Notes: generated by a model from the letters alone, not told the origin. Numbered from the stretch's first letter, positions 4,005 to 14,900 are shown. The stretch is 64,000 nt of DNA from Nitriliruptorales bacterium (GCA_033722375.1 JAWVZB010000001.1:5175-69174); one strand, 5' to 3'. Translations and numbers: made by a program.

Positions 4005-5795
4005 GTGCAGGAGTACACGACGGCAGGTCCGATCGAGCTACAGGACGACGACCATCTCGTCCAGCCGCTCATCGCGCACGCCGATGACCGGCCCCACGCC
4101 CCGCTCCTCTCCTACCGCGACGGTGATCGGTTCGTCGATCTCACGACGTCGGACGTGTGGAACCGCGTCCAGGCACTCGCGAAGGGGCTCATCGCCATCG
4201 GCATCGAACCCAAACAACGGGTCTCGATCATGAGCCACACCCGGCTCGAATGGGTGCTCATGGACTACGCGATCCTGGCCGCAGGTGGCGTCACGGTCCC
4301 GATCTACGAGACCTCCTCGACCGAGCAGATCGAGTGGATCATCTCCGACTCGGGCGCCCGGGCGGTCGTGTTCGAGGACAGCGCTCTCAAGGCGAAGTTC
4401 GACGAGGTCGCCGACGGGCTCGACGACTGCGAGCACACGTTCGTCATCGAGGAGGGCGGGCTCGAAGCGCTCATCGAGGCCGGCAAGGACGTGGACGACG
4501 CGACGCTGGACGAGCGGCTCGAGAACATCTCGACCGACGATCTCGCGACCATCATCTACACGTCCGGGACGACTGGGCGCCCCAAGGGGTGTCTCCTGAC
4601 CCACCACAACCTCCGCAGCAACGTGCTGAACACGGTGCAGCTCATCCAGGAGATGATCACCAAGGACGACAGCCAACTGCTGTTCCTGCCGTTGGCGCAC
4701 TCGTTCGCGAAGATCCTGCTGCTGTCCTCGATCGAGCAGGGCGCCAAGGTCGGTTTCAACACCGAGATGGACAAGCTCACCGAAGAGATGCCGATGTTCG
4801 AGCCGACCTACCTGGCGGCGGTTCCGCGGATCTTCGAGAAGGTCTTCACCGCTGCCCAGCAGCGAGCGGCAGCGGACGGCAAGGGCAAGATCTTCGACAA
4901 GGCTGCCGAGGTCGCCGAGCAGTACTCACGCGAGGAACGCTCTGGCACGGTCAGCCTCAAGACCAAGACGCAGCACTTCGTCTTCGACAAGCTCGTCTAC
5001 GGCAAGCTCCGCGACGTGTTCGGTGGTCAGCTCAAGGCCTCGAACTCCGGCGGTGGCCCCCTCGGTGAGCGCCTCGCTCACTTCTTCAACGGCATCGGGG
5101 TCCAGGTCTACGAGGGCTACGGCCTGACCGAGACCAGCCCCGTCCTGACCTCCAACCGGCCCGATGCGTGGAAGATCGGCACCGTCGGCCAGCCCATCCC
5201 GGGCACCACCATCAAGATCGCCGATGACGGCGAGGTCCTCGCGAAGGGCCCCCAGATCTTCCAGGGCTACTACAACAACGAGGAGGCCACGAGCGAAGCC
5301 ATCGACGACGATGGCTGGTTCCACACCGGTGACATCGGCGAGCTCGACGACGACGGCTTCCTCAAGATCACCGGCCGCAAGAAGGAGATCATCGTCACCG
5401 CGGCGGGCAAGAACGTCGCCCCGGCGGTGCTCGAGGACCGCATCAAGCGTCACCGGCTCGTCAGCCAGGCGATGGTCGTGGGCGACAACCGGAAGTTCAT
5501 CGGGGCGCTCGTCACGATCGACGAGGAGACCTTCCCCCAGTGGGCCGAGGAGCACGGCAAGACCGGCAAGTCGGTCGCCGACCTCACCCAGGACGAGGAG
5601 CTCCGCGCCGAGGTGCAGCAAGCCATCGACGACGCCAACCAGGCCGTGTCGCGTGCCGAGTCGGTCCGCGAGTTCCGCATCCTCCCACAGGACTTCACCG
5701 TCGAGGGCGGCGAGCTCACGCCCACACTGAAGGTCAAGCGTCGCGTCGTCGAAGACCGCTATTCCGAGCACATCGACGATATCTACAGCGGGTAG
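4005..5795 (+). CDS. long-chain fatty-acid--CoA ligase (AMP-dependent synthetase)
   Basis: GTG at 4005 with AGGAG 7 nt upstream. AMP-binding motifs are YTSGTTGRPKG, YEGYGLTETSP, GWFHTGDIGELDDDGFLKITGRKKE and LTPTLKVKRR. The rest of ORF 2526..5795 upstream is antisense run-on. Confidence 0.9.
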   Translation: MQEYTTAGPIELQDDDHLVQPLIAHADDRPHAPLLSYRDGDRFVDLTTSDVWNRVQALAKGLIAIGIEPKQRVSIMSHTRLEWVLMDYAILAAGGVTVPIYETSSTEQIEWIISDSGARAVVFEDSALKAKFDEVADGLDDCEHTFVIEEGGLEALIEAGKDVDDATLDERLENISTDDLATIIYTSGTTGRPKGCLLTHHNLRSNVLNTVQLIQEMITKDDSQLLFLPLAHSFAKILLLSSIEQGAKVGFNTEMDKLTEEMPMFEPTYLAAVPRIFEKVFTAAQQRAAADGKGKIFDKAAEVAEQYSREERSGTVSLKTKTQHFVFDKLVYGKLRDVFGGQLKASNSGGGPLGERLAHFFNGIGVQVYEGYGLTETSPVLTSNRPDAWKIGTVGQPIPGTTIKIADDGEVLAKGPQIFQGYYNNEEATSEAIDDDGWFHTGDIGELDDDGFLKITGRKKEIIVTAAGKNVAPAVLEDRIKRHRLVSQAMVVGDNRKFIGALVTIDEETFPQWAEEHGKTGKSVADLTQDEELRAEVQQAIDDANQAVSRAESVREFRILPQDFTVEGGELTPTLKVKRRVVEDRYSEHIDDIYSG

Positions 5796-5807
5796 TCGCT
5801 GCCATCC

Positions 5808-6158
5808 TCAGGCGACGTCGAACACGAACGCGAGCACGAACCAGGCCGACGGGGCGTAGCTCACGATCGCGAGGCCCTGGAGGAGGCGCGTACGGAACCG
5901 GGATCGCGGCCACCGCGCACGGGTGAGTGCGGTGATCGCTGCGATCACACCCCAGATCAGCAGCAGCCCCCCGCTGTAGACGACGAGCACGGCGAAGAAC
6001 AGGCAGGACATGCCCTCGCAGTTCCATGGCAGCAGGTTGCCCTCGAGCTGACCGAGGACGATGCCGGTGAGGAACAGAGCGGGGGCGGCCAGCGCCCCGA
6101 CCACCGTGGCCCGCCAGTCGGGGTCGAGCGCGGCGAACCAGTCTCTTACCCCCCGCAT
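5808..6158 (-). CDS. hypothetical membrane protein (about 116 aa, 3 predicted TM helices)
   Basis: ATG at 6158 with AGGAG 9 nt upstream. High GC3 and hydrophobic segments (VVGALAAPALFLTGIVLG, CLFFAVLVVYSGGLLLIWGVIAAITAL, VSYAPSAWFVLAFVF). It is convergent with the acyl-CoA ligase. Confidence 0.55.
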   Translation of the reverse strand: MRGVRDWFAALDPDWRATVVGALAAPALFLTGIVLGQLEGNLLPWNCEGMSCLFFAVLVVYSGGLLLIWGVIAAITALTRARWPRSRFRTRLLQGLAIVSYAPSAWFVLAFVFDVA

Positions 6159-6531
6159 CGCACGAGTCTCCTGTGCTGGTCGTGCGTCACCCCGACGTGG
6201 TGCAGAGCCCGGGGCTGGCTCGCGGTCTCCGGCGCTGTCCGGATCCGCTCTGGCGGTCGCCGCTTCGTCGGCTGCTTCGCGGCCGATAGGTCCCCGACGC
6301 GTCCTCACACGATGAACCGTGGCGCCGGAGAGTGTGGTCGGCGTAGACCGCGCGCTCCTGCGGGCTCTGCAGGACCATCATGCCACAGGCCAGGCAGAAA
6401 TGGAAGGGTCCACGACGACTCGACGTTTCTCGTGCCGTGAGCGGTCGCCGCTACGGTGCTCCTGATGGAGGAACCCCCTGGAGCTCGAGGGAGCAGCCGT
6501 CCAGGGTGTCGCGCCGAGTGGTGAGGTTCTC

Positions 6532-7344
6532 GTGGCAGAGCGCGTCACGATCGTGTGGGTGCACGGAGGCGGCTGCGATGGCTGCACTATGTCGGTTCTC
6601 GGGGCGACCTCCCCGCGGCTCGAGGAGCTCGTCAGTGGCCGCTTGACCCGCTCGGAGATCAGCGTGGTGCACCCGCACCTCGTCGTCGAGGCGGGGGACG
6701 CCTACGTCGCGGCGCTCGACGCTGCTCGGCACGGACAATCGGACCCCTACGTCCTCGTGGTCGAAGGTTCGATGTTCGACGAGGCCCTGGCCGGGGCGGG
6801 AACGTTCTCGCGTCTCGGACAGCGCGACGGGGTGCCCGTCACCGTTGAGCAGTGGGTCAGCGACCTGGCGCCCGGGGCGGCAGCGGTGGTGGCGATCGGG
6901 ACGTGCGCCACCTGGGGCGGCATCCCGGCGGCCCGCGGCAACGTGACAGGGGCAGGCGGTGTCGACCAGGTGCTCGGTGCCGACTACGAGAGCGCGACGG
7001 GTCTCCCGATCGTCAACGTGCCAGGCTGCGCCCCGAGCGGGGATGCGTTCCTCGAGACGATCCACTACCTGCTGCTCCACTTCGAGGGAGCGGTGCCGTT
7101 CGACATGGACGAGCTCGGTCGCCCGCGGTGGCTCTACGCCGACGAGACGCCACTGCGGCGGCCACGGCTCCCCGGGATCGCCCGCGAGCCGGACGACGAG
7201 CTCACCGCTGCCTGTCCCGTCCCACAGCGGGGGTGGATCAACCGCCTGGGAGGTTGCGCGAGCGTGGGTGGCGACTGCAACGGGTGTACCCGCCCCGATT
7301 TCCCTGACCGCACGCTGCCACTCGTCGCCGTGACCCGGGACTGA
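6532..7344 (+). CDS. [NiFe]-hydrogenase small subunit, short form without Tat signal
   Basis: Contains VWVHGGGCDGCTMS (CxxC of the proximal cluster), IGTCATWGG, VPGCAPSG and the C-terminal WINRLGGCASVGGDCNGCTRPDF. GTG start with GAGG 5 nt upstream. The stop is 6 nt before the large-subunit gene. Confidence 0.85.
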   Translation: MAERVTIVWVHGGGCDGCTMSVLGATSPRLEELVSGRLTRSEISVVHPHLVVEAGDAYVAALDAARHGQSDPYVLVVEGSMFDEALAGAGTFSRLGQRDGVPVTVEQWVSDLAPGAAAVVAIGTCATWGGIPAARGNVTGAGGVDQVLGADYESATGLPIVNVPGCAPSGDAFLETIHYLLLHFEGAVPFDMDELGRPRWLYADETPLRRPRLPGIAREPDDELTAACPVPQRGWINRLGGCASVGGDCNGCTRPDFPDRTLPLVAVTRD

Positions 7345-7350
7345 TCGGCC

Positions 7351-9192
7351 GTGTGCTTCAACAACCTCCCGATCCTCTTCGATGACTCCGGACGCGCGCG
7401 GCTGGACGAATCACGTGGCTTCGCGGTCGACACCGCGCCGCGTGAGGCGCCGGCCTACGTCGCTCCCTCCGAGGCCAAGGGGAAGACCTTCTCGATCGAT
7501 CCGGTGACCCGGGTGGCCGGCGCGCTCGCGTTCCACACCACCGTGGACCTCGAGGACCGCGTCGTCACGAGCGCACACTCACAGGCTGTGCTGTTCCGTG
7601 GCTACGAGCTGATCCTGCGCGATCGGGAGCCCGAGGAGGCCATCCACATCTCGTCCCGTGCGTGCGGTGTCTGCGGCGGGGTCCACTCCACCGCGTCGGC
7701 CATGGCACTCGAGATGGCCTTCGGCGTCGTGCCTCCGCCGCTCGCGATCATCGCGCGCAACCTCGCCGAAGGGGCGGAGCTGCTCTACGACCACTGCCTG
7801 CATCTGTTCCTGCTCGCGGGGGTCGACTACTCGCAGCAGGTGGTCGAGCAGACGAGCCCCGGGTTGTGGCGACGCGCACAGCGGACCGCTGCTCCGAACG
7901 CCGGCACGCACGGCTTGATGACGATCGCCGACATCATGACGGGTCTCAACCCGCTGCGAGGCAGTCTCGTGACCGAGGCGCTCGAGGTGACCCGGACCGG
8001 ACGCGAGATCGTCTCGCTGGTCTACGGCAAGTACCCCCATCCCTCGGCGATCGTCCCGGCCGGGCTCGGAACGAGTCTCGACCACGCCACCTTGAACCAG
8101 GTTCTGTCACGGATGGTGCGGCTGCTCGATTACGCGAAGAAGGTCGCCACGTTGTGGGACGATCTGGTCGAGTTCTTCCTCGAGGCCGATCCCGACTACC
8201 GGCTGGTCGGTGTTCGCCCCGCCAACCTCATCAGCACCGGCATGTGGGACGACCCCCGCGTCTACGACGCCACCTACGCGAACGCCGACGCGTGGGGGCA
8301 GCGCCGCCTCACGACACCGGGGGTGGTGATCGACGGCGAGCTGCGGACCACGAACCTGCGGCAGATCAACCTCGGGATCGAGGAGTTCGTCGACCACTCG
8401 TTCTACGAGCGGTGGGCCGACGACGACGAGCCCGGGGAGGCACCGGACGGGGCGCCGCTGAGTCCGTTCCACCCGTGGAACAAGCGCACCATCCCCCGTC
8501 CCGAGGCAACGAGCTGGCGGGACCGCTACTCCTGGTCCACCGCCCCGCGCTGGGACCGCGAGGCGATGGAGTCGGGACCGCTCGCCCGGCAGTGGATCAC
8601 GGTCGCCGCGGGACTGGTCGAGACGGAGTTCATCCGGACGGCGCCCGGACGGCTCGAGATCGTCGTCCCCGAGAGCTCCCTGCCCGAGATGACGATCACC
8701 TGGCGGGTGCCCGACACGGTCAACGCGCTCGAGCGGATCCGCGCTCGTGCGACCCACGTGGCCTACTGTCTCATGGCGGGCTACACCTACCTCCTCGAGG
8801 CGTTCGACGCGTTCCGCAGCGGGGAGACCGAGATGGCCGCACCCTACGAGGTCACCGACGGGGTTGGGGTCGGCTTCTGGGAAGCGGGACGGGGAACGCT
8901 CACCCACTACGCGACGATCGAGGACGGCAAGCTCGCCAACTACCAGATCCTCACGCCGTCCACCTGGATGGCCTCGCCTCGCGATCCGTGGGATCTGCCC
9001 GGCCCCTACGAGGAGGCCGTCCTGAACACGCCCATCCTCGAGCACACCGAGGACCCGGACGCGTTCACGGGGATCGACATCCTCCGCACGATCCGGAGCT
9101 TCGATCCGTGCCTGCCCTGTGCCGTACATCTGCACACCGGCGGTGGCACGATCGTCCGGGATGCGACGAGCTGCGCGTGTGGTACGTCATGA
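7351..9192 (+). CDS. [NiFe]-hydrogenase large subunit
   Basis: N-terminal IDPVTRVAGA, L1 motif SSRACGVCGGVH, L2 motif SFDPCLPCAVH followed by a 20-aa tail. Total 613 aa. GTG start at 7351; the exact start is uncertain. Confidence 0.9.
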   Translation: MCFNNLPILFDDSGRARLDESRGFAVDTAPREAPAYVAPSEAKGKTFSIDPVTRVAGALAFHTTVDLEDRVVTSAHSQAVLFRGYELILRDREPEEAIHISSRACGVCGGVHSTASAMALEMAFGVVPPPLAIIARNLAEGAELLYDHCLHLFLLAGVDYSQQVVEQTSPGLWRRAQRTAAPNAGTHGLMTIADIMTGLNPLRGSLVTEALEVTRTGREIVSLVYGKYPHPSAIVPAGLGTSLDHATLNQVLSRMVRLLDYAKKVATLWDDLVEFFLEADPDYRLVGVRPANLISTGMWDDPRVYDATYANADAWGQRRLTTPGVVIDGELRTTNLRQINLGIEEFVDHSFYERWADDDEPGEAPDGAPLSPFHPWNKRTIPRPEATSWRDRYSWSTAPRWDREAMESGPLARQWITVAAGLVETEFIRTAPGRLEIVVPESSLPEMTITWRVPDTVNALERIRARATHVAYCLMAGYTYLLEAFDAFRSGETEMAAPYEVTDGVGVGFWEAGRGTLTHYATIEDGKLANYQILTPSTWMASPRDPWDLPGPYEEAVLNTPILEHTEDPDAFTGIDILRTIRSFDPCLPCAVHLHTGGGTIVRDATSCACGTS

Positions 9193-9202
9193 GGGGCCGC
9201 CC

Positions 9203-10942
9203 GTGAGCACGGACGAGGAGGAGCCCGGCGACGAGGCCGGCACCTCGTCGGCAGGGTCGGGCGTGACCATGCGGCGCCTGTCGCAGGCGTTGGATTCCCT
9301 GGCCGAGGTGCAGGCCGACCTCGACGAGGAGCGGCTCCGCCGGTTCCAGGCGGAGGCACTCCTGGACCGCCTGTTCACGTCGATGTCGGATGCGGTGCTG
9401 GTCGTGGATCCACATGGCGAGGTCGTGCGGGCCAGTGGTGCCGCCCCGCGCCTGTTCGGTCGGCCCGAGGACGAGCTGATCGGATCCGTGCCGGAGGGGT
9501 GGTACGAGGACGAGGTTCCCCTCCGTCCCTGGGACCTCCTCGAACGCGCCCCGTCCGGGCAGTTGCACCTCGAGACGGTGGTCCAGCGACCGGATGGCAG
9601 CAGCCGTGAGGTGAGCCTGTCCTGCACCGTGATCCGGGACCGCGACGGCAAGGTCACCGGAGCCGTACACGCAGCTCGCGACCTCAGCAACGTGCACTAC
9701 CTCCTGCGTGAGGTCCGGGCGGCCGAACAGCGCTGGCGCCTGCTGGCCCACGTCGGAGCTCGACTGTCCGAGGCGCTCGATCCGGAGGACGTGCTCGGGG
9801 AGCTCGTGACCTACCTCGGTGGGGAGACCGAGCTCGGTGTGGCGCTGCTGTTGACAGACGACGGAGTGATCGAGGTCGTGCATCTGTCCCCGGACGTCCC
9901 GGACGGCGAGGTCCTCGACGGGCTCGTCGGGACGGCTCCGTCGGCCGGTTCCAGCCTCGCGGCGGTGCTGGCGGACGGTCAGACGGTGCATGCCCCCGCC
10001 CCACCCTCCGACTTCCCGCTCGCTGGGCCCGCCCTCCCGGCGATGGCATCGGCGGCGGTGCTCCCGCTCACCGCCGACGACCGGACCTTCGGGGCGATGA
10101 TCGTCGCGTCACCGGAGGCGCGTGCGGTGCGGGAGGAACACGTGGACCTCTTCGAGGAGGTCGCCGCACGGATCGCCCTCAGCATCGCGAACGCGCGCTT
10201 GCAGCGTCGGATCATGGAACACCGTGCCGAGCAGGAGGCGGTGGCGTACCGCGACCGCATCCTTGAGGCGATCTCGCACGAGATGAAGACCCCGCTGGCG
10301 GTCCTCACGGGCCAGCTCAAGCAGCTCAAGACCGCCGGCGGGTCCGTCGAGCCCGCCGCGCTCGAGAAGATCGTGGCCAGCGTCGATCGACAGGTCATCC
10401 GGCTCCGGCGGCTCGTGACGCAGTTCCTCGACTACATCCGGGTCGAAGCCGGGCATGAACTGGCGGTCAGCACCCGTCCCGTCGACGTGCGCTCGCTGGT
10501 CGAGACGACCGCCGAGACGGTCGCAGACGAGGGTCGGCTGCGGCTCGACCTCCCCGCCGACCTCCCTCCCGCGGAGGCGGACACGAACCGGCTCGACCTG
10601 GCGCTGGCGAACCTGATCTCGAACGCCCTGAAGTACGCGCCCTCCTCCACCCCGGTCACGGTCACCGGTCGCGAGGCGGGGCGACACGTCGAGATCAGCG
10701 TCACCGACGAAGGGCCCGGCATCCCGATCTCCGAACAGCCGCGACTGTTCGACAAGTTCGCCCGTGGATCCGAGGAGAGTGGGGTCGAAGGGAGCGGCCT
10801 CGGGTTGTACATGACGCGCCAGATGATGCACAGTCAGGGTGGCGAAGTACGGCTGTCGAGCCGCCCCGGAGAGGGAAGCCGGTTCACGCTGGTGTTGCCA
10901 CGCTCGGACGTTGAAGACGAGGGGGACAACGATGAGCAGTGA
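9203..10942 (+). CDS. soluble sensor histidine kinase (PAS - GAF - HisKA - HATPase_c)
   Basis: No TM segment. PAS-like region (LFTSMSDAVLVVDPHGEVV ... DRDGKVTGAVHAARD). GAF-like region. H-box ISHEMKTPLAVL. N/G boxes NLISNALKYAP, DEGPGIP and GSGLGLYMTRQM. In-frame GTG at 9203, 10 nt after the hydrogenase stop; an alternative ATG lies about 66 nt further on. Confidence 0.85.
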   Translation: MSTDEEEPGDEAGTSSAGSGVTMRRLSQALDSLAEVQADLDEERLRRFQAEALLDRLFTSMSDAVLVVDPHGEVVRASGAAPRLFGRPEDELIGSVPEGWYEDEVPLRPWDLLERAPSGQLHLETVVQRPDGSSREVSLSCTVIRDRDGKVTGAVHAARDLSNVHYLLREVRAAEQRWRLLAHVGARLSEALDPEDVLGELVTYLGGETELGVALLLTDDGVIEVVHLSPDVPDGEVLDGLVGTAPSAGSSLAAVLADGQTVHAPAPPSDFPLAGPALPAMASAAVLPLTADDRTFGAMIVASPEARAVREEHVDLFEEVAARIALSIANARLQRRIMEHRAEQEAVAYRDRILEAISHEMKTPLAVLTGQLKQLKTAGGSVEPAALEKIVASVDRQVIRLRRLVTQFLDYIRVEAGHELAVSTRPVDVRSLVETTAETVADEGRLRLDLPADLPPAEADTNRLDLALANLISNALKYAPSSTPVTVTGREAGRHVEISVTDEGPGIPISEQPRLFDKFARGSEESGVEGSGLGLYMTRQMMHSQGGEVRLSSRPGEGSRFTLVLPRSDVEDEGDNDEQ

Positions 10943-11306
10943 CCACGATCGGCGCGTCCTGCTCCTGCTGGTCGACGACGAGCCCGAGATCCGCATGCTC
11001 CTCCGCACCATGCTGGGGGTGCGCAACTGGAACGTCGACGAGGCGTCGTCCGGCCCTGAGGCGCTCGAGAAGTGTGACGAGGACGGCTACCGGGCGATCA
11101 TCCTCGACCAGCGGATGCCGAGGATGACCGGCCTCGAGGTCGCCCGGGAGCTCCGCGACCAGGGCAACGAGACCCCCATCGTGCTCTTCTCCGCCTACCT
11201 GGAACCCGACGTGGAGGCGGGCGCCCAGGAGCTCGGCTTGCCAACGGTGCCGAAGGACGACTTCGACCAGCTCTTCGATGTTCTGGAGCGTCTCGTGCGT
11301 GCCTGA
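10932..11306 (+). CDS. single-domain (receiver-only, CheY-like) response regulator
   Basis: 124 aa with LLLLVDDEPEIR, AIILDQRMPRMTG, IVLFSAY and PKD. No output domain. The ATG at 10932 overlaps the kinase stop by 11 nt. Confidence 0.85.
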   Translation: MSSDHDRRVLLLLVDDEPEIRMLLRTMLGVRNWNVDEASSGPEALEKCDEDGYRAIILDQRMPRMTGLEVARELRDQGNETPIVLFSAYLEPDVEAGAQELGLPTVPKDDFDQLFDVLERLVRA

Positions 11307-11321
11307 GTCGTGCGACTCAGG
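11302..11321. terminator. palindromic hairpin spanning both convergent stop codons (candidate bidirectional terminator)
   Basis: CCTGAGTCG-TG-CGACTCAGG is a perfect 9-bp inverted repeat. It contains the TGA of the response regulator (11304-11306) and the complement of the protease stop (11317-11319). Confidence 0.45.
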
Positions 11322-11844
11322 ACCGGTGGGGTGGGCTCGGGGCCGTGAGCCGCGCCACCTCGGCGTCGATCCTCGCGAGCAGGTCGGGGACGAGCGCCAG
11401 GGCGTCCGCTGATGGTTCCGCCGCGAAGCCCGTGTCGATGGGTTCGACCTCGAGGACGCAGGTGTCCTCCGGCAGTGCGCCGTAGTAGGCCGTGATCGCC
11501 AGGATGTGATCGAGGTCGATCACACCGGAGACGCTCTCGCCGAGCCTCGCCTGGAGCTCTGCTGGATCCGGCCCGTCACGCTGCGGAGCTCGCCATCGGA
11601 TCGTGCCGGGCTCATCGCCGCGCGGGTGGCACGCCACGATCAGGAGGGCGTCCGGAGCCAGCTCCTGGAGTAGGTGAACCACCCGGTGCGCGGCCACGGT
11701 GACCTCCTCGACGTGGACCCCGGCCGGCAGGACCCGTTCGCGGCATCGGCGGGCCACGAGGGGGCCGAGGTCGAGGTCACCGGCCCACGGGATCCCGACG
11801 CCGGCGATCAGCAGCGATACTTCGTCGGTGGTCGTTCGTGGCAT
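11317..11844 (-). CDS. hydrogenase maturation endopeptidase-like protein (HybD/HycI/HoxW family, divergent)
   Basis: 175 aa. LLIAGVGIPWAGDLDLGP resembles the GxGNxxxxDDGxG start of the family. DALLIVACHP and VIDLDHILAI resemble the second and third conserved blocks. Assignment is by hand alignment only. Confidence 0.55.
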   Translation of the reverse strand: MPRTTTDEVSLLIAGVGIPWAGDLDLGPLVARRCRERVLPAGVHVEEVTVAAHRVVHLLQELAPDALLIVACHPRGDEPGTIRWRAPQRDGPDPAELQARLGESVSGVIDLDHILAITAYYGALPEDTCVLEVEPIDTGFAAEPSADALALVPDLLARIDAEVARLTAPSPPHRS

Positions 11845-11990
11845 GTGCCGACCTTAGGTCGTCGGCCCGCTCTCGGGCGCGGCGGTTTCGCGACAACCGA
11901 CCTTCGTGCAGACCGACCCACGTCTGACGGTCACTACCCTGGCGAGGCTCGCCCCCGGCGAGGCCCCTCGTAGTCAGGAACAGGTCGACG

Positions 11991-14900
11991 GTGACGGATC
12001 AGGGACAGCACTCCGTCTCGGCACGGCACGCCCACCTGACGTTCGTGCCGGGGGAGCTCGCACCGGCCTCCGGAGCGTTCGTCGTCTGGGGGGTTGACCA
12101 TCCGGATGAGGCTGCGCTCGAGCTCGGGTTCCCGGCTGGCGAGAAGGGCCGGCTGCGGACGGTCGTGCGGGGCGACGACGGCCGGCTGGAGCGTCGTGAC
12201 GTGGACGGTCGCGTGATCCCGCTCGTGCCCATCCTGCGGGTCCTGGCCGCGATGCCGCCGGGTTCGGATCATGCTCCGTGGCAGCGGCCGTCGGACAGCG
12301 TGCTCGCCTGGAGCGTCGCGGCGAAGCTCGCGCTCGAGTTCGTGTCGGCCGGACGCGTGGTACCGAGCTTCCAGGCGGATCAGGGCGGCGACGAGGGACG
12401 CGCGATCTGGCGCTGCGTACCGACCTCCGACGGCCGGCTCGCCCACCTCGCCGAGGCGATGCCGCTCGCCGCCACCGCGTTGCGGAGCGACGAGGACGAC
12501 GCCACGGTCTGGGTACCGCTGCGCCTCCTGCGATCCTTCTGCGACGCGGTCGCGGACGCGTGTGGTCGCGCCGGGAGGCGGCCCGAGGTCGATCCGCGCC
12601 GGCGCGGGGCGCGGCGCCCGTGGGAGGAGATGTGGGCCGACGCGCTCGCGAGTGCTGATCCCACGGTGTCCCGGCTGCGGATGGATTCTGGAGAGCTCGC
12701 GGACGCCGTGCAGGACTGGGCCAGTCCCTACCTGGGCCGCCGCGAGGGACGGTCGGTGCAGCTGCTGCTGAAGCTGGAGCCGCCGGCGACCGAGGACGGG
12801 TCGGTCGCCCCGCTCGAGGTGCCGTCGGGGGAGTGGCGCCTGAGCTTCCATCTGCGTTCCATCCTCGACGAATCCGCGGTGGTGCCTGCCGGAGACGTCT
12901 GGGGGGCGGACGGGGTGGTCGAACTCGCCGGCAAGCGGGTGCACGACGCCGCCGAAGTGCTCGTGCGTGCTCTGGCTGGGGCGGCCCGGCTGTTCCCCCC
13001 TCTGGAGCCGGTCCTCTCCGATGCGTCGCCGACGGGTATCGACCTGTCCGGTCCCGAGGTCGCGCAGCTCTTGACCGGCGACCTCGATGCCCTGGTGGAT
13101 GCCGGCATCGCCGTGCAGATCCCACCGGAGCTGCGACAGGCGGACGACCGCCGCCTACGGATCCGCGCCCGGATCGGCAGGACCACCGATGCTGACATCG
13201 GCTCGCTCGCGGACGCCGGGTTCTCCCTGCCCGACCTGACCCAGTTCGAGTACGAGCTGGCTATCGGCGACGACGCGCTGACCGAGGAGGAGTTCGCCGA
13301 GATCGTCAAGGCCAAACAGCCACTCGTGCGCTGGCGCGGCCAGTGGGTGCGGGTCGAGCGTGACGAGGCCGACCGGCTCGCAGCGATCGCGGGAACCACC
13401 GGCACCCTCGACGTCACCGAAGCGTTGGCGGCGGCGTTGGCGGGCCAGCGCCGCGACGACGAACTCGGACTCGTGGACACCGTGGCGTCGGGCGAGATCC
13501 TGGCGCTGGTGGAGCGGCTGGTGCAGGAGGGGGCGGACCTCGACGACCCCAACCTCGACGGCATCGACGGTGACCTGCGCGACTACCAGCGACGCGGCAT
13601 CGCCTGGCTGCAGCAGCTCGCTGCCCTGGGGCTCGGCGGGGTGCTCGCCGACGAGATGGGGCTCGGCAAGAGCGTGCAGGCCATCGCGCTCATGACCGCG
13701 CGGCGACAGGACCGTCCCCACCTGGTGGTGTGCCCGACCTCGGTCGTCGGCAACTGGGAGCGCGAGATCGCCAAGTGGACCGGTGACTTCCCGAGCATCC
13801 GCTACCACGGGCCCGACCGCCCCAGCACGATCCGTGCCTTCCACCCCGGCCACATCACGGTCACGACCTACGCGCTGCTGCGGCGGGACATCGACCTGCT
13901 CGAAGCCGTCGACTGGGACGTGGTGGTGTTCGACGAGGCGCAGAAGATCAAGAACGCCGAATCCAAGGGCGCGAAGGCCGCGCGGGCACTCGACGCCCGG
14001 GTCAAGATCGCGATGACCGGGACGCCGATCGAGAACCGGCTGTCCGAGCTGTGGGCGATCATCGACGTGACCAACCCGGGGCTGCTCGGATCCCGGCGGC
14101 GCTTCAACGAACGGTTCGGCGTGCCCATCGAGCGTTGGCACGACGCCGAGGCCGCGGAGCGGTTGCGCCGGCTCATCGCGCCGTTCGTGATGCGCCGCCT
14201 CAAGTCCGACCCCGAGGTGTCGGTCGACCTCCCCGAGAAGCAGGAGATCACCGTCCACTGCTCCCTCACCCGCGAGCAGGCGTCGCTCTACCAGGCGGCG
14301 GTGGACAAGGCGTTCTCGGGGGAGGGCCTCGGCGCCACGACCTTCGAGCGGCGCGGGCGGATCCTCGCCCTGCTCACCGCGCTCAAGCAGATCTGCAACC
14401 ATCCGCGCCAGTACCTGCGTGACGGCAGCCGACTCCAGGGCCGGTCCGGGAAGCTCTCGCGGGTCACCGACATCCTCCAGGAGGTGGTCGCCTCGGGCGA
14501 CCACGCGCTCGTGTTCACCCAGTACAAGCAGATGGGCGATCTGCTCGTCGAACACCTCGAGTCGGCCCTCGACCTGCCCGAGGTCCCGTTCCTGCACGGC
14601 GGCACCGCCATGTCGGCGCGGGAGGCCATGGTCGATCGGTTCCAGGAAGCTCCGGATGCCCCGCCGATCCTGCTCGTGTCGCTGCGGGCGGGGGGCACCG
14701 GTCTGAACCTCACCCGCGCCACGGAGGTGATCCACTACGACCGCTGGTGGAACCCCGCGGTCGAGCAGCAGGCCACCGACCGCGCTCATCGCCTCGGACA
14801 GACCCGCCCCGTCACGGTCCACGCGCTCGTGACCGCCGGGACCGTCGAGGACCGCATCGCCGAGCTCCTCCAACAGAAGAAGGATCTCGCCCGGCAGGTG

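What the first reader, a model, noticed from the sequence alone, without database searches (positions are those of the whole stretch)
6532..11844. Histidine-kinase-linked [NiFe]-hydrogenase module: candidate non-canonical H2-sensing two-component system
The small subunit (6532-7344) and large subunit (7351-9192) are followed after only 10 nt by a soluble PAS-GAF histidine kinase (9203-10942). That kinase overlaps a receiver-only response regulator by 11 nt (10932-11306). A maturation-protease-like gene converges on the unit (11317-11844). Nothing in the locus encodes an electron-acceptor partner such as cytochrome b, diaphorase or a ferredoxin-like subunit. The small subunit has no Tat signal, and no hyp genes are in the window. 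The only established precedent for a hydrogenase wired to a PAS kinase is the proteobacterial regulatory hydrogenase (HoxBC-HoxJ-HoxA, HupUV-HupT-HupR). This locus differs in four ways: the large subunit is about 613 aa and keeps a cleavable C-terminal tail, the small subunit has two rather than three cluster-binding sites, the kinase carries an extra GAF domain, and the regulator has no DNA-binding output. Together this suggests an independent, possibly undescribed H2-sensing signalling system.
Basis: partly seen in the sequence, partly recalled or inferred. Interest (0 to 1): 0.85.

Follow-up and report, generated by a model that had tools for sequence, protein, structure and literature searches.

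The report
Kinase-coupled [NiFe]-hydrogenase, likely hydrogen sensor
This actinobacterial locus encodes a stripped-down nickel-iron hydrogenase wired to a signalling kinase. It belongs to a widespread clade I could not find described, related to the enzymes that scavenge trace hydrogen, and it most likely senses hydrogen rather than harvesting energy from it.

Summary
The large subunit is not a group 2b or 2c sensor. It falls in the 1h/1l/1m superclade: 40-43% identity to canonical 1h and 49-54% to 1l/1m-like enzymes.

In a tree of 83 large subunits, the kinase-linked sequences form one clade with 90% bootstrap support. Three things travel together across Actinomycetota, Chloroflexota, Acidobacteriota and Planctomycetota:
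- a short small subunit that has lost the distal Fe-S cluster and the C-terminal extension;
- a large subunit;
- an immediately downstream signalling protein with a conserved N-terminal long-helix-plus-PAS module.

Only the output varies: kinase plus a receiver-only protein, hybrid kinase, REC-PAS-STAS, or GGDEF-EAL. The sister 1l/1m-like clade never has the kinase. Three sensor-type loci lie next to a 1l-type uptake hydrogenase.

Best reading: an independently evolved hydrogenase-based H2 sensor that works like HoxBC-HoxJ but is not a member of that family. H2 dependence is inferred, not shown. Eight full-text searches found no description of this clade. Acidobacterial offshoots carry tandem large subunits, and in many loci both copies have lost all four Ni-Fe cysteines yet keep the kinase.

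The parts
6159..6531 (+). Upstream intergenic region, the presumed promoter region of the operon
   Evidence: It lies between the divergent 116-aa gene and the SSU start. No sigma-70-like consensus was found, so the promoter is not identified.
6532..7344 (+). Short [NiFe]-hydrogenase small subunit, 270 aa. No Tat signal. Proximal 4-Cys and medial 4-Cys sites only; the distal cluster and C-terminal extension are missing.
   Evidence: AF2 model pLDDT 85.6; best PDB match is 5aa5_A with TMq 0.84 and TMt 0.67. The best 120 database relatives are all 237-310 aa.
7351..9192 (+). [NiFe]-hydrogenase large subunit, 613 aa, with all four Ni-Fe cysteines
   Evidence: PF00374, E 4e-76. Best PDB hit is HofG 5aa5_C at 492 bits, against 207 for Hyd-1 and 157 for Huc. 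Motifs; clade placement.
7657..7680 (+). L1 motif RACGVCGG (C105, C108)
   Evidence: Identical in the kinase-linked type A clade and the 1l/1m-like clade; different from 1h (RICGICGD).
9097..9129 (+). L2 motif SFDPCLPCAVH (C587, C590, H593)
9130..9189 (+). 20-residue C-terminal tail with the conserved RDATSCACG (CxC) motif, the presumed protease substrate
9203..10942 (+). Soluble sensor histidine kinase: N-terminal 46-residue helix, PAS, GAF, HisKA (H359), HATPase_c
   Evidence: Pfam. Catalytic motifs. AF2 model of residues 1-200, pLDDT 87.4, helix 15-60 and PAS 64-160. N-terminal module conserved across the clade.
10932..11306 (+). Receiver-only response regulator, 124 aa (D15, D16, D59, S87, K108). 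Overlaps the kinase gene by 11 nt.
   Evidence: The same gene order occurs in L002, L004, L005, L034, L091 and L094. Elsewhere the REC is fused to the kinase.
11317..11844 (-). Divergent HycI/HybD-superfamily maturation-protease-like gene, convergent with the operon
   Evidence: TIGR00072 45.9 bits against a cut-off of 47.45. HycI 2e85, E 0.017. Homologous, E 1e-20 to 1e-38, to the proteases that directly follow 1l/1m-like LSUs.

Best explanation
The locus encodes a cytoplasmic, hydrogenase-based sensor complex feeding a two-component phosphorelay.

- A normally matured Ni-Fe site in the large subunit binds and splits H2.
- The electrons can travel only as far as the proximal and medial Fe-S clusters. 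The small subunit has lost the distal cluster and its C-terminal extension, and none of the usual acceptor partners is encoded nearby. So the enzyme reports H2 as a redox or conformational state instead of feeding respiration.
- That state is read by the N-terminal long-helix-plus-PAS module of the co-translated kinase, which probably docks where the distal-cluster lobe used to be.
- This changes autophosphorylation at H359 and phosphotransfer to D59 of the receiver-only protein, which passes the signal on by protein-protein contact or further phosphorelay.

Shown: gene anatomy; intact catalytic and signalling residues; clade membership; cross-phylum conservation of the SSU-LSU-PAS module with interchangeable outputs.

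Inferred: physical complex formation, the docking site, H2 as the signal, the sign of regulation, and the downstream targets. Uptake hydrogenases are plausible targets, because group 1l-type clusters lie next to the sensor operon in three relatives.
For: 1. The LSU keeps all four Ni-Fe cysteines and the C-terminal tail, and a protease-like gene is adjacent. A Planctomycetes relative has hypF-hypC-hypD directly upstream.

2. The SSU lacks the distal cluster and extension in every member of the kinase-linked clade. The 1h and 1l/1m-like SSUs keep them (structure).

3. Kinase-linked LSUs form one clade with 90% bootstrap support, distinct from 1l/1m-like (99%) and 1h (100%).

4. Among close (type A) relatives with at least 1 kb downstream, 13 of 15 have a PAS-kinase and one has GGDEF-EAL. 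Essentially all type C loci have one. Of about 25 type B loci, none does.

5. Reverse test: all 3 proteins retrieved with the N-terminal module profile and looked up lie within 3.5 kb downstream of a short SSU and LSU; two follow them directly.

6. Outputs differ while the input module is constant: separate REC, fused REC, REC-PAS-STAS, multi-kinase/Hpt relay, GGDEF-EAL.

7. The sensor operon is convergent with a textbook group 1l cluster plus hypE in L090, and adjacent to 1l-like genes in L057 and L006.

8. The N-terminal module aligns with the HoxJ N-terminus from residue 7, including a shared EAxWxD motif.

9. Tight gene spacing and no terminator-like site inside the unit.
Against: - There is no biochemical or expression evidence. 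H2 dependence is inferred by analogy with HoxBC-HoxJ.
- Nothing in the LSU distinguishes it from the catalytic sister clade at the sites checked. The RVAGAL motif and the gas-gate residues V/L are shared with 1l/1m-like enzymes.
- The similarity to HoxJ is only slightly better than to unrelated PAS domains (E 2e-13 against 2e-9 to 2e-11).
- The window's own kinase has a diverged N-terminal motif.
- The nested acidobacterial forms lost the Ni-Fe ligands but kept the kinase. The conserved signal could therefore be the Fe-S redox state rather than H2 itself.
- No hyp genes are in the window.
- All members found are from metagenome-assembled genomes or metagenomes.
Confidence: 0.65

Rival explanations
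1. This is an ordinary energy-conserving, high-affinity uptake hydrogenase of the 1h/1l/1m type. The kinase and receiver are merely its co-located regulators and sense some other signal, such as O2, redox state or nutrients, through PAS and GAF.
For: The closest characterised relatives are catalytic uptake enzymes. The LSU active-site motifs are intact and L1 is identical to the 1l/1m-like clade. A protease-like gene is present. PAS and GAF are generic sensor domains; the fold search gave only generic LOV, NifL and FixL matches.
Against: The SSU lacks the distal cluster, which is the electron exit. None of the usual acceptor partners (cytochrome b, NifU-like or other 1h accessory proteins) is encoded nearby. 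The regulator has no DNA-binding domain. The coupling survives changes of output domain and even loss of the Ni-Fe site. Genuine 1l clusters occur beside the sensor operon as separate units with their own long SSU.
Confidence: 0.14
2. This is a hydrogenase-derived Fe-S redox, O2 or CO sensor. The kinase reads the oxidation state of the two Fe-S clusters. H2 is at most one input, acting as a reductant that resets the clusters, and the primary signal is an oxidant or another gas.
For: Acidobacterial descendants keep the 8-Cys small subunit and the kinase. Many of them have lost all four Ni-Fe cysteines in both tandem LSU copies, so signalling there cannot depend on H2 activation.
Against: In the window's own subclade all four Ni-Fe cysteines, the tail and a protease-like gene are retained across about 20 sequences. 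This implies selection for a working Ni-Fe site. hyp genes are directly linked in L093.
Confidence: 0.17
3. The arrangement is a decaying or non-functional relic, or an assembly artefact, with no coherent function.
For: One relative (L001) has frameshifts in the SSU and partner gene. L095 is fragmented. L050 has transposase-like ORFs downstream.
Against: In the window all five ORFs are intact, with high GC3 (0.84-0.89) and conserved catalytic residues. An identical gene set is present on the independently deposited copy of the contig. More than 120 clusters at 90% identity exist for both the LSU and the SSU.
Confidence: 0.03

Closest known systems
Group 2b regulatory hydrogenase systems: HoxBC-HoxJ-HoxA of Cupriavidus necator and HupUV-HupT-HupR of Rhodobacter/Bradyrhizobium
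   Same: Cytoplasmic SSU without a Tat signal. SSU-LSU genes followed directly by a soluble PAS histidine kinase. The kinase N-terminal helix plus PAS aligns with HoxJ residues 7-173. Some relatives lie next to uptake hydrogenase genes. This is the best functional analogue.
   Different: The LSU is only distantly related: HoxC scores 131 bits against 505.5 for HofG, and it lies outside the clade in the tree. The LSU is 613 aa with a 20-aa tail and a protease-like gene, whereas HoxC is 485 aa and ends at the His. The SSU has two cluster sites rather than three and no C-terminal extension. The gas-gate residues are V/L, not I/F. The kinase has an extra GAF domain. The regulator is receiver-only, not NtrC-type.
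Groups 1l and 1m [NiFe]-hydrogenases (Hyl, Hhm), the putative high-affinity uptake enzymes described in PMC9561532
   Same: Nearest sequence relatives, at 49-54% identity. Identical L1 motif SSRACGVCGGVH. A C-terminal tail with a CxC motif. The same divergent protease family.
   Different: They form a separate clade (99% bootstrap, against 90% for the kinase-linked clade). They have a long SSU with three cluster sites and a C-terminal extension. The protease follows directly on the same strand. Group 1l has five small transmembrane genes. None has a kinase.
Group 1h (group 5) Actinobacteria-type high-affinity hydrogenase: Hhy, and HofKG (PDB 5aa5)
   Same: Best solved-structure match for both subunits. 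Same superclade. Occurs in aerobic soil phyla.
   Different: 40.6-43.5% identity. L1 TSRICGICGDNH and L2 ...PCGVH differ. The 1h proximal cluster motif is GCDGD (Asp in place of the second Cys), whereas here it is GCDGC. The NifU-like, DUF5947 and DUF6084 accessory genes are absent.
Group 2c diguanylate-cyclase-linked putative sensory hydrogenases (HydDB, PMC5037454)
   Same: The idea of a hydrogenase coupled to a PAS signalling protein. One close relative (L001, 68% identity) has GAF-PAS-GGDEF-EAL in place of the kinase.
   Different: The published 2c L2 consensus is SFDxCLVCTVH (PMC4853749); here it is SFDPCLPCAVH. Group 2c was reported mainly in aquatic sulfate reducers and methylotrophs. 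The window's partner is a kinase.
[FeFe]-hydrogenase group C (HydS-type) putative sensory hydrogenases (HydDB table, PMC5037454)
   Same: A hydrogenase module coupled to PAS, kinase or phosphatase signalling outputs that vary between lineages.
   Different: An unrelated metalloenzyme superfamily. This resemblance rests on the HydDB table and general knowledge and was not tested here.

Membership tests
Group 2b regulatory [NiFe]-hydrogenase (HoxBC/HupUV) | Large subunit groups phylogenetically with HoxC/HupV | tested here: not met
   HoxC scores 131 bits against 505.5 bits for HofG. HoxC is the outgroup to the whole 1h/1l/1m/kinase-linked assemblage in the neighbour-joining tree.
Group 2b regulatory [NiFe]-hydrogenase (HoxBC/HupUV) | Large subunit ends at the His of the L2 motif, with no C-terminal extension and no protease | tested here: not met
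   A 20-residue tail follows H593. A protease-like gene is adjacent.
Group 2b regulatory [NiFe]-hydrogenase (HoxBC/HupUV) | Small subunit without a Tat signal | tested here: met
   The first start codon lies 14 residues before the first Cys motif, and an in-frame stop lies 22 codons upstream.
Group 2b regulatory [NiFe]-hydrogenase (HoxBC/HupUV) | Small subunit with three Fe-S cluster sites and a C-terminal extension used for oligomerisation and kinase binding | tested here: not met
   Only 8 Cys, giving two sites. The protein ends about 18 residues after the last Cys. HoxB is 347 aa.
Group 2b regulatory [NiFe]-hydrogenase (HoxBC/HupUV) | Adjacent soluble PAS histidine kinase of HoxJ/HupT type | tested here: inconclusive
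   A PAS kinase lies directly downstream. The N-terminus aligns with HoxJ residues 7-173 at 98% probability, E 2e-13. Unrelated PAS domains score E 2e-9 to 2e-11.
Group 2b regulatory [NiFe]-hydrogenase (HoxBC/HupUV) | NtrC-type response regulator (HoxA/HupR) as output | tested here: not met
   The regulator is 124 aa with a REC domain only. HoxA matches only its REC part.
Group 2b regulatory [NiFe]-hydrogenase (HoxBC/HupUV) | Narrowed gas channel (HoxC I62 and F110) | tested here: not met
   V and L occupy the aligned positions.
Group 2b regulatory [NiFe]-hydrogenase (HoxBC/HupUV) | H2-dependent modulation of kinase activity, with very low catalytic turnover | not testable with these tools
   Requires biochemistry.
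Group 2c DGC-linked [NiFe]-hydrogenase | L2 consensus SFDxCLVCTVH | tested here: not met
   The window has SFDPCLPCAVH. The consensus is quoted in PMC4853749.
Group 2c DGC-linked [NiFe]-hydrogenase | Co-encoded PAS diguanylate cyclase/phosphodiesterase | tested here: not met
   The window's partner is a HisKA/HATPase kinase. Only relative L001 has GGDEF-EAL.
Group 1h [NiFe]-hydrogenase (Hhy/Hof) | L1 TSRICGICGDNH and L2 SFDPCLPCGVH, and clade membership | tested here: not met
   The motifs differ. The three 1h references form a separate 100% clade. Identity is 40.6-43.5%.
Group 1h [NiFe]-hydrogenase (Hhy/Hof) | Three-cluster small subunit of about 350 aa, and the conserved NifU-like, DUF5947 and DUF6084 accessory genes | tested here: not met
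   The SSU is 270 aa with two sites. The window has no hits to these accessory proteins. They are present in L087-L089.
Groups 1l/1m [NiFe]-hydrogenases | Clade membership of the large subunit | tested here: not met
   The 1l/1m-like loci form their own 99% clade. The window lies in the 90% kinase-linked clade. The reference 1l identity rests on the L090 gene order matching the published description (PMC9561532).
Groups 1l/1m [NiFe]-hydrogenases | Long three-cluster small subunit. Five small transmembrane genes between SSU and LSU (1l), or SSU-LSU-peptidase on one strand (1m). | tested here: not met
   The SSU is short and lies 6 nt from the LSU. There are no small transmembrane genes. The protease is on the opposite strand.
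Two-component system (HisKA-family kinase plus receiver) | H-box His and the N, G1 and G2 boxes in the kinase. DD, D, S/T and K residues in the receiver. | tested here: met
   H359, NLISNALKY, DEGPGI and GSGLGL in the kinase. D15, D16, D59, S87 and K108 in the receiver.
Hydrogenase maturation endopeptidase (HybD/HycI, TIGR00072) | Score above the family cut-off, and canonical metal ligands (Asp/Glu16, Asp62, His90/93) | tested here: inconclusive
   45.9 bits against a cut-off of 47.45, with full-length coverage. The canonical ligand positions are replaced in this protein and in all 1l/1m-associated homologues. The L090 homologue is called PF01750 HycI.

The most novel reading that the evidence does not exclude
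The clade is a high-affinity sensor of trace, possibly atmospheric, H2 that evolved from scavenging hydrogenases. Through phosphorelay, partner-switching or c-di-GMP outputs, it tells soil Actinomycetota, Chloroflexota, Acidobacteriota and Planctomycetota when to deploy uptake hydrogenases or persistence programmes. In Acidobacteriota the same scaffold duplicated its large subunit. Many of those loci then lost the Ni-Fe site altogether, giving a pseudo-hydrogenase Fe-S sensor for a different signal.
Probability: 0.3. Interest if true: 0.85.

Novelty: new variant of a known kind. Interest (0 to 1): 0.72.

Why it matters
Regulation of trace-gas H2 oxidation in soil bacteria is poorly understood. 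The only proven [NiFe] H2 sensors are the proteobacterial group 2b enzymes.

A second, independently evolved sensor lineage would have several consequences:
- It would give a testable route to how dominant soil phyla perceive H2, and a comparison point for how a catalytic hydrogenase is converted into a sensor. Here the conversion involves loss of the distal cluster and gain of a docking PAS module.
- Because the large subunit is closest to groups 1h/1l/1m, similarity-based surveys may count it as a high-affinity uptake hydrogenase. That would inflate estimates of atmospheric H2 oxidisers.
- The small subunit is currently annotated 'hypothetical protein' or mis-named 'HypE'.
- The cysteine-less acidobacterial derivatives are a separate curiosity.

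Tried and rejected
1. **Selenocysteine in type C.** Many type C large subunits stop just before the first L2 cysteine. TAA, TAG and TGA are all used, and no xxCxxH follows, so these are true truncations.

2. **Loss of the RIEGH proton-transfer Glu as a sensor signature.** RVAGAL is shared with the catalytic 1l/1m-like clade, and 1h has RIVGSL.

3. **RH-like gas-channel narrowing.** The residues are V/L, as in the sister clade.

4. **A conserved Cys or cofactor motif in the docking PAS.** The one widely conserved Cys is a Trp in the window. The fold search gave only generic LOV, NifL and FixL PAS matches.

5. **The AMP-binding neighbour as a conserved partner.** It is only 30% identical to the one in L094 and absent elsewhere.

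6. **Promoter and terminator scan of 5700-12200.** Nothing was found.

7. **HoxJ-specific homology.** It is real but only marginally above generic PAS controls.

8. **Profile search with the N-terminal module to census output domains.** It returned only 77 hits, mostly short kinases and fragments, so it was not a useful census.

9. **Literature.** Eight full-text searches found group 2c, 1l, 1m and 2f descriptions, but no kinase-linked 1h/1l-like clade.

Full report
**Observation**

Independent gene calls on a second deposited copy of the contig (L085, offset 206) agree with them.

Pfam and NCBIfam give these assignments:
- 6532-7344: a hydrogenase small subunit (Oxidored_q6, weak NiFe_hyd_SSU_C).
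- 7351-9192: a nickel-dependent hydrogenase large subunit (PF00374, E 4e-76).
- 9203-10942: PAS-GAF-HisKA-HATPase_c.
- 10932-11306: a receiver domain only.
- 11317-11844 (minus strand): TIGR00072 'hydrogenase maturation protease', full length, at 45.9 bits against a cut-off of 47.45.

Reading the junctions gives a 6-nt gap, a 10-nt gap, an 11-nt overlap, and 10 nt between the two convergent stop codons. No terminator-like site lies inside the unit.

The small subunit cannot carry a Tat signal. An in-frame stop lies 22 codons upstream of its GTG, with no start codon between them.

It has exactly eight cysteines: 15, 18, 125, 166 and 228, 242, 249, 252. Alignment with HofK, HoxB and HoxK shows that the segment carrying the distal-cluster ligands, and the C-terminal extension, are missing. 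An AlphaFold model (pLDDT 85.6) matches the HofK chain of 5aa5 best. TM-score is 0.84 over the query but 0.67 over the longer target.

The large subunit has L1 RACGVCGG and L2 DPCLPCAVH, followed by a 20-residue tail. The kinase has H359 and the N, G1 and G2 boxes. The receiver has D15, D16, D59, S87 and K108.

The whole 64-kb window contains no hyp gene, second hydrogenase, cytochrome b or 1h accessory gene. The Pfam-annotated flanks are a ligase, an acyl-CoA-synthetase-like gene and an SNF2 helicase.

**What the hydrogenase is related to**

The exact large subunit is deposited as a Nitriliruptorales metagenome-assembled genome. Against solved structures it matches the actinobacterial-type (group 1h) HofG of 5aa5 at 492 bits. 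E. coli Hyd-1 scores 207 bits and the group 2a Huc 157 bits. The small subunit behaves the same way.

It is nevertheless not a canonical 1h enzyme:
- Identity to Streptomyces, Mycobacterium, Methylocystis and Cupriavidus 1h large subunits is only 40.6-43.5%.
- The 1h motifs TSRICGICGDNH and PCGVH are not met.
- The 1h accessory genes seen in L087-L089 are absent.

The group 2c L2 consensus, SFDxCLVCTVH (PMC4853749), is also not met. HoxC of the group 2b sensor scores only 131 bits.

**Comparative genomics**

Scans of one genome per GTDB species and of JGI metagenomes gave 80 related loci. Protein look-ups added Pfam-annotated neighbourhoods. Searching their ORFs with the window's proteins sorted the loci into three types.

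- **Type A.** The large subunit is 60-79% identical to the window's. Hosts are Actinomycetota, Chloroflexota, one Acidobacteriota genome and a Planctomycetes genome. There is a short small subunit, a large subunit with tail, and directly downstream a PAS signalling protein.
- **Type B.** Identity is 49-54%. There is a long three-cluster small subunit and the protease directly after the large subunit, but never a kinase. Locus L090 shows that at least part of this type is the published group 1l. Its gene order is a 434-aa small subunit, five genes of 87-110 aa, a 633-aa large subunit, a Rieske protein, HycI and hypE. This matches the description in PMC9561532. The adjacent-gene actinobacterial loci fit that paper's group 1m.
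- **Type C.** Identity is 48-55%, in Acidobacteriota. There is a short small subunit, two tandem large subunits, and a 750-1280-aa multi-PAS-GAF hybrid kinase.

A neighbour-joining tree was built from 83 large subunits, 596 columns and 200 bootstraps. Types A and C together form one clade with 90% support. Type B has 99% and the 1h references 100%. Type C is nested within type A.

Every small subunit of the kinase-linked clade lacks the distal-cluster segment and the extension. Every type B and 1h small subunit keeps them.

Among type A loci with at least 1 kb of downstream sequence:
- 13 of 15 have the PAS kinase;
- one (L001) has GAF-PAS-GGDEF-EAL, preceded by the same N-terminal module in a shifted frame;
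- one (L050) has transposase-like ORFs.

Essentially all type C loci have the kinase, and none of about 25 type B loci do.

The reverse test also holds. Three proteins retrieved with a profile of the N-terminal module were looked up. All three lie within 3.5 kb downstream of a short small subunit and a large subunit, two of them directly after it. One of these loci also has hypF-hypC-hypD immediately upstream.

The family is large. The best 120 clusters at 90% identity for the large subunit are all at least 61% identical and about 615 aa. The best 120 for the small subunit are all 237-310 aa.

**The signalling side**

The partner proteins share their first ~160-180 residues, which are highly conserved. 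The consensus is LHEAAWPDMFANLQxAYAELxxxQFELERR...SMSEALFLxD..GRV...N.AA. In the AlphaFold model of the window's kinase (pLDDT 87.4) this region is a 46-residue helix followed by a PAS core and a long exit helix. The window's actinobacterial subclade has a diverged version of the first helix.

What follows the module varies:
- HisKA-HATPase with a separate receiver-only gene (window, L002, L004, L005, L034, L091, L094);
- the same with the receiver fused (L042/L090, L045, L048 and all type C);
- a kinase followed by REC-PAS-STAS (L092);
- a multi-kinase relay with an Hpt domain (L094);
- GGDEF-EAL (L001).

A constant input module with interchangeable outputs is what one expects of a sensor cassette.

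The family profile aligns with the first 173 residues of HoxJ, including an EAxWxD motif in the pre-PAS helix (98% probability, E 2e-13). Unrelated PAS domains reach E 2e-9 to 2e-11 over the PAS core alone. I therefore treat common ancestry with HoxJ as suggestive only.

In three type A loci an uptake-type hydrogenase cluster lies within a few kilobases. In L090 it is convergent; in L057 and L006 it is on the same strand. This is the arrangement expected if the sensor controls uptake hydrogenase expression, as HoxBC-HoxJ does.

**Mechanism proposed**

The Ni-Fe site is intact and is presumably matured by Hyp proteins encoded elsewhere, and processed by the divergent protease. H2 is split, but electrons can go no further than the proximal and medial clusters. 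The redox or conformational state is read by the kinase's helix-PAS module, and the signal leaves through H359 to D59 of the receiver-only protein.

The anatomy, conservation and clade structure are shown. Complex formation, the docking site, H2 as the signal and the targets are inferred. I put this at 0.65.

The main rivals are:
- a catalytic uptake enzyme with co-located regulators (0.14). The missing electron exit, the lack of a DNA-binding output, and the persistence of the coupling when outputs change all argue against it;
- an Fe-S redox or O2 sensor in which H2 is secondary (0.17). The cysteine-less type C proteins argue for it. Strict retention of the Ni-Fe ligands, the tail and the protease-like gene in type A argues against it.

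**Features that did not discriminate**

The replacement of RIEGH by RVAGAL is shared with the catalytic sister clade, as are the V/L gas-gate residues. The truncated type C proteins are not selenoproteins, because all three stop codons occur.

**Comparison with known systems and novelty**

The system works like the group 2b regulatory hydrogenase but fails most of its membership criteria: phylogeny, C-terminal tail, cluster number, regulator type and gas-gate residues. It is closest in sequence to groups 1l/1m and 1h but fails their criteria too: clade, small-subunit architecture and accessory genes.

Eight full-text literature searches found the descriptions of groups 2c, 1l, 1m and 2f, but nothing on a kinase-linked 1h/1l-like clade. 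That is absence of evidence in the held library, not proof.

I rate it a new variant of a known kind: an independently evolved sensory [NiFe]-hydrogenase lineage. Interest is 0.72.

Noticed in passing
L022 7995-11686; L033, L040, L067, L069 and about 20 other acidobacterial loci: Two tandem large-subunit paralogues have both lost all four Ni-Fe cysteines (L1 SRARGTSSVAH and SRVSGQGSGAN). Both terminate exactly at ...SFDP, using TAA, TAG or TGA. They sit between an 8-Cys short small subunit and a ~1140-aa multi-PAS-GAF hybrid kinase. These are pseudo-hydrogenase sensors that cannot activate H2 in the canonical way.
   Followed up: partly
L011 6110-9809; L013, L051, L052, L054, L059-L061, L063: An intermediate form. 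The first tandem large subunit keeps one L1 Cys and stops at SFDP. The second keeps CxxC and ends exactly at the L2 His (SFDPCLHCAVH-stop), with no tail, like HoxC. No protease gene was found in these loci.
   Followed up: partly
L090 9105-21237 (same contig as L042); also L057 19-8216 and L006 4462-13325: The sensor-type operon lies next to a group 1l-type uptake hydrogenase cluster (long SSU, five small genes, LSU, Rieske, HycI, hypE). This suggests that the sensor regulates that enzyme.
   Followed up: partly
window 9157-9183, and the C-termini of all type A and type B large subunits: The C-terminal tail, which is normally cleaved and poorly conserved, carries a conserved CxC motif: RDATxCxCG in the kinase-linked clade and REVNxCxC in the 1l/1m-like clade. 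It is absent from 1h, 1d and 2b tails. Its function is unknown.
   Followed up: no
window 11317-11844, and proteases in L008-L021, L090 and others: The whole protease clade associated with type A and 1l/1m-like hydrogenases lacks the canonical HycI/HybD metal ligands. The D16 and D62 positions are replaced, and the H90 region is deleted.
   Followed up: partly
window 11304-11319: The two convergent stop codons and the 10-nt spacer form a perfect palindrome, TGAGTCG-TG-CGACTCA. The loop is too short for a conventional hairpin, and its significance is unknown.
   Followed up: no
window 6532-7344; L087 6833-7888; P0237, P0308: Annotation problem. The window's small subunit is deposited as 'hypothetical protein'. 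Relatives, and even the characterised HofK, are named 'hydrogenase expression protein HypE' in public records.
   Followed up: yes
L001 9208-14624: The one GGDEF-EAL-linked relative has its small subunit split into two ORFs, and its N-terminal helix-PAS module is in a different frame from the GAF-PAS-GGDEF-EAL ORF. This is either a decaying locus or an assembly error.
   Followed up: partly
L074 1-3051: An orphan large-subunit lineage branches at the base of the whole assemblage. It ends at SFDPCMSCATH with no tail, and a small-subunit gene follows it rather than preceding it.
   Followed up: no
L090 4721-5500 and L094 12749-13516: A pair of small CbiA/ArsA-like ATPase genes (about 111 and 137-143 aa) recurs near sensor-type operons. 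It may correspond to the CooC-type nickel-insertion ATPase reported for group 1m clusters.
   Followed up: no
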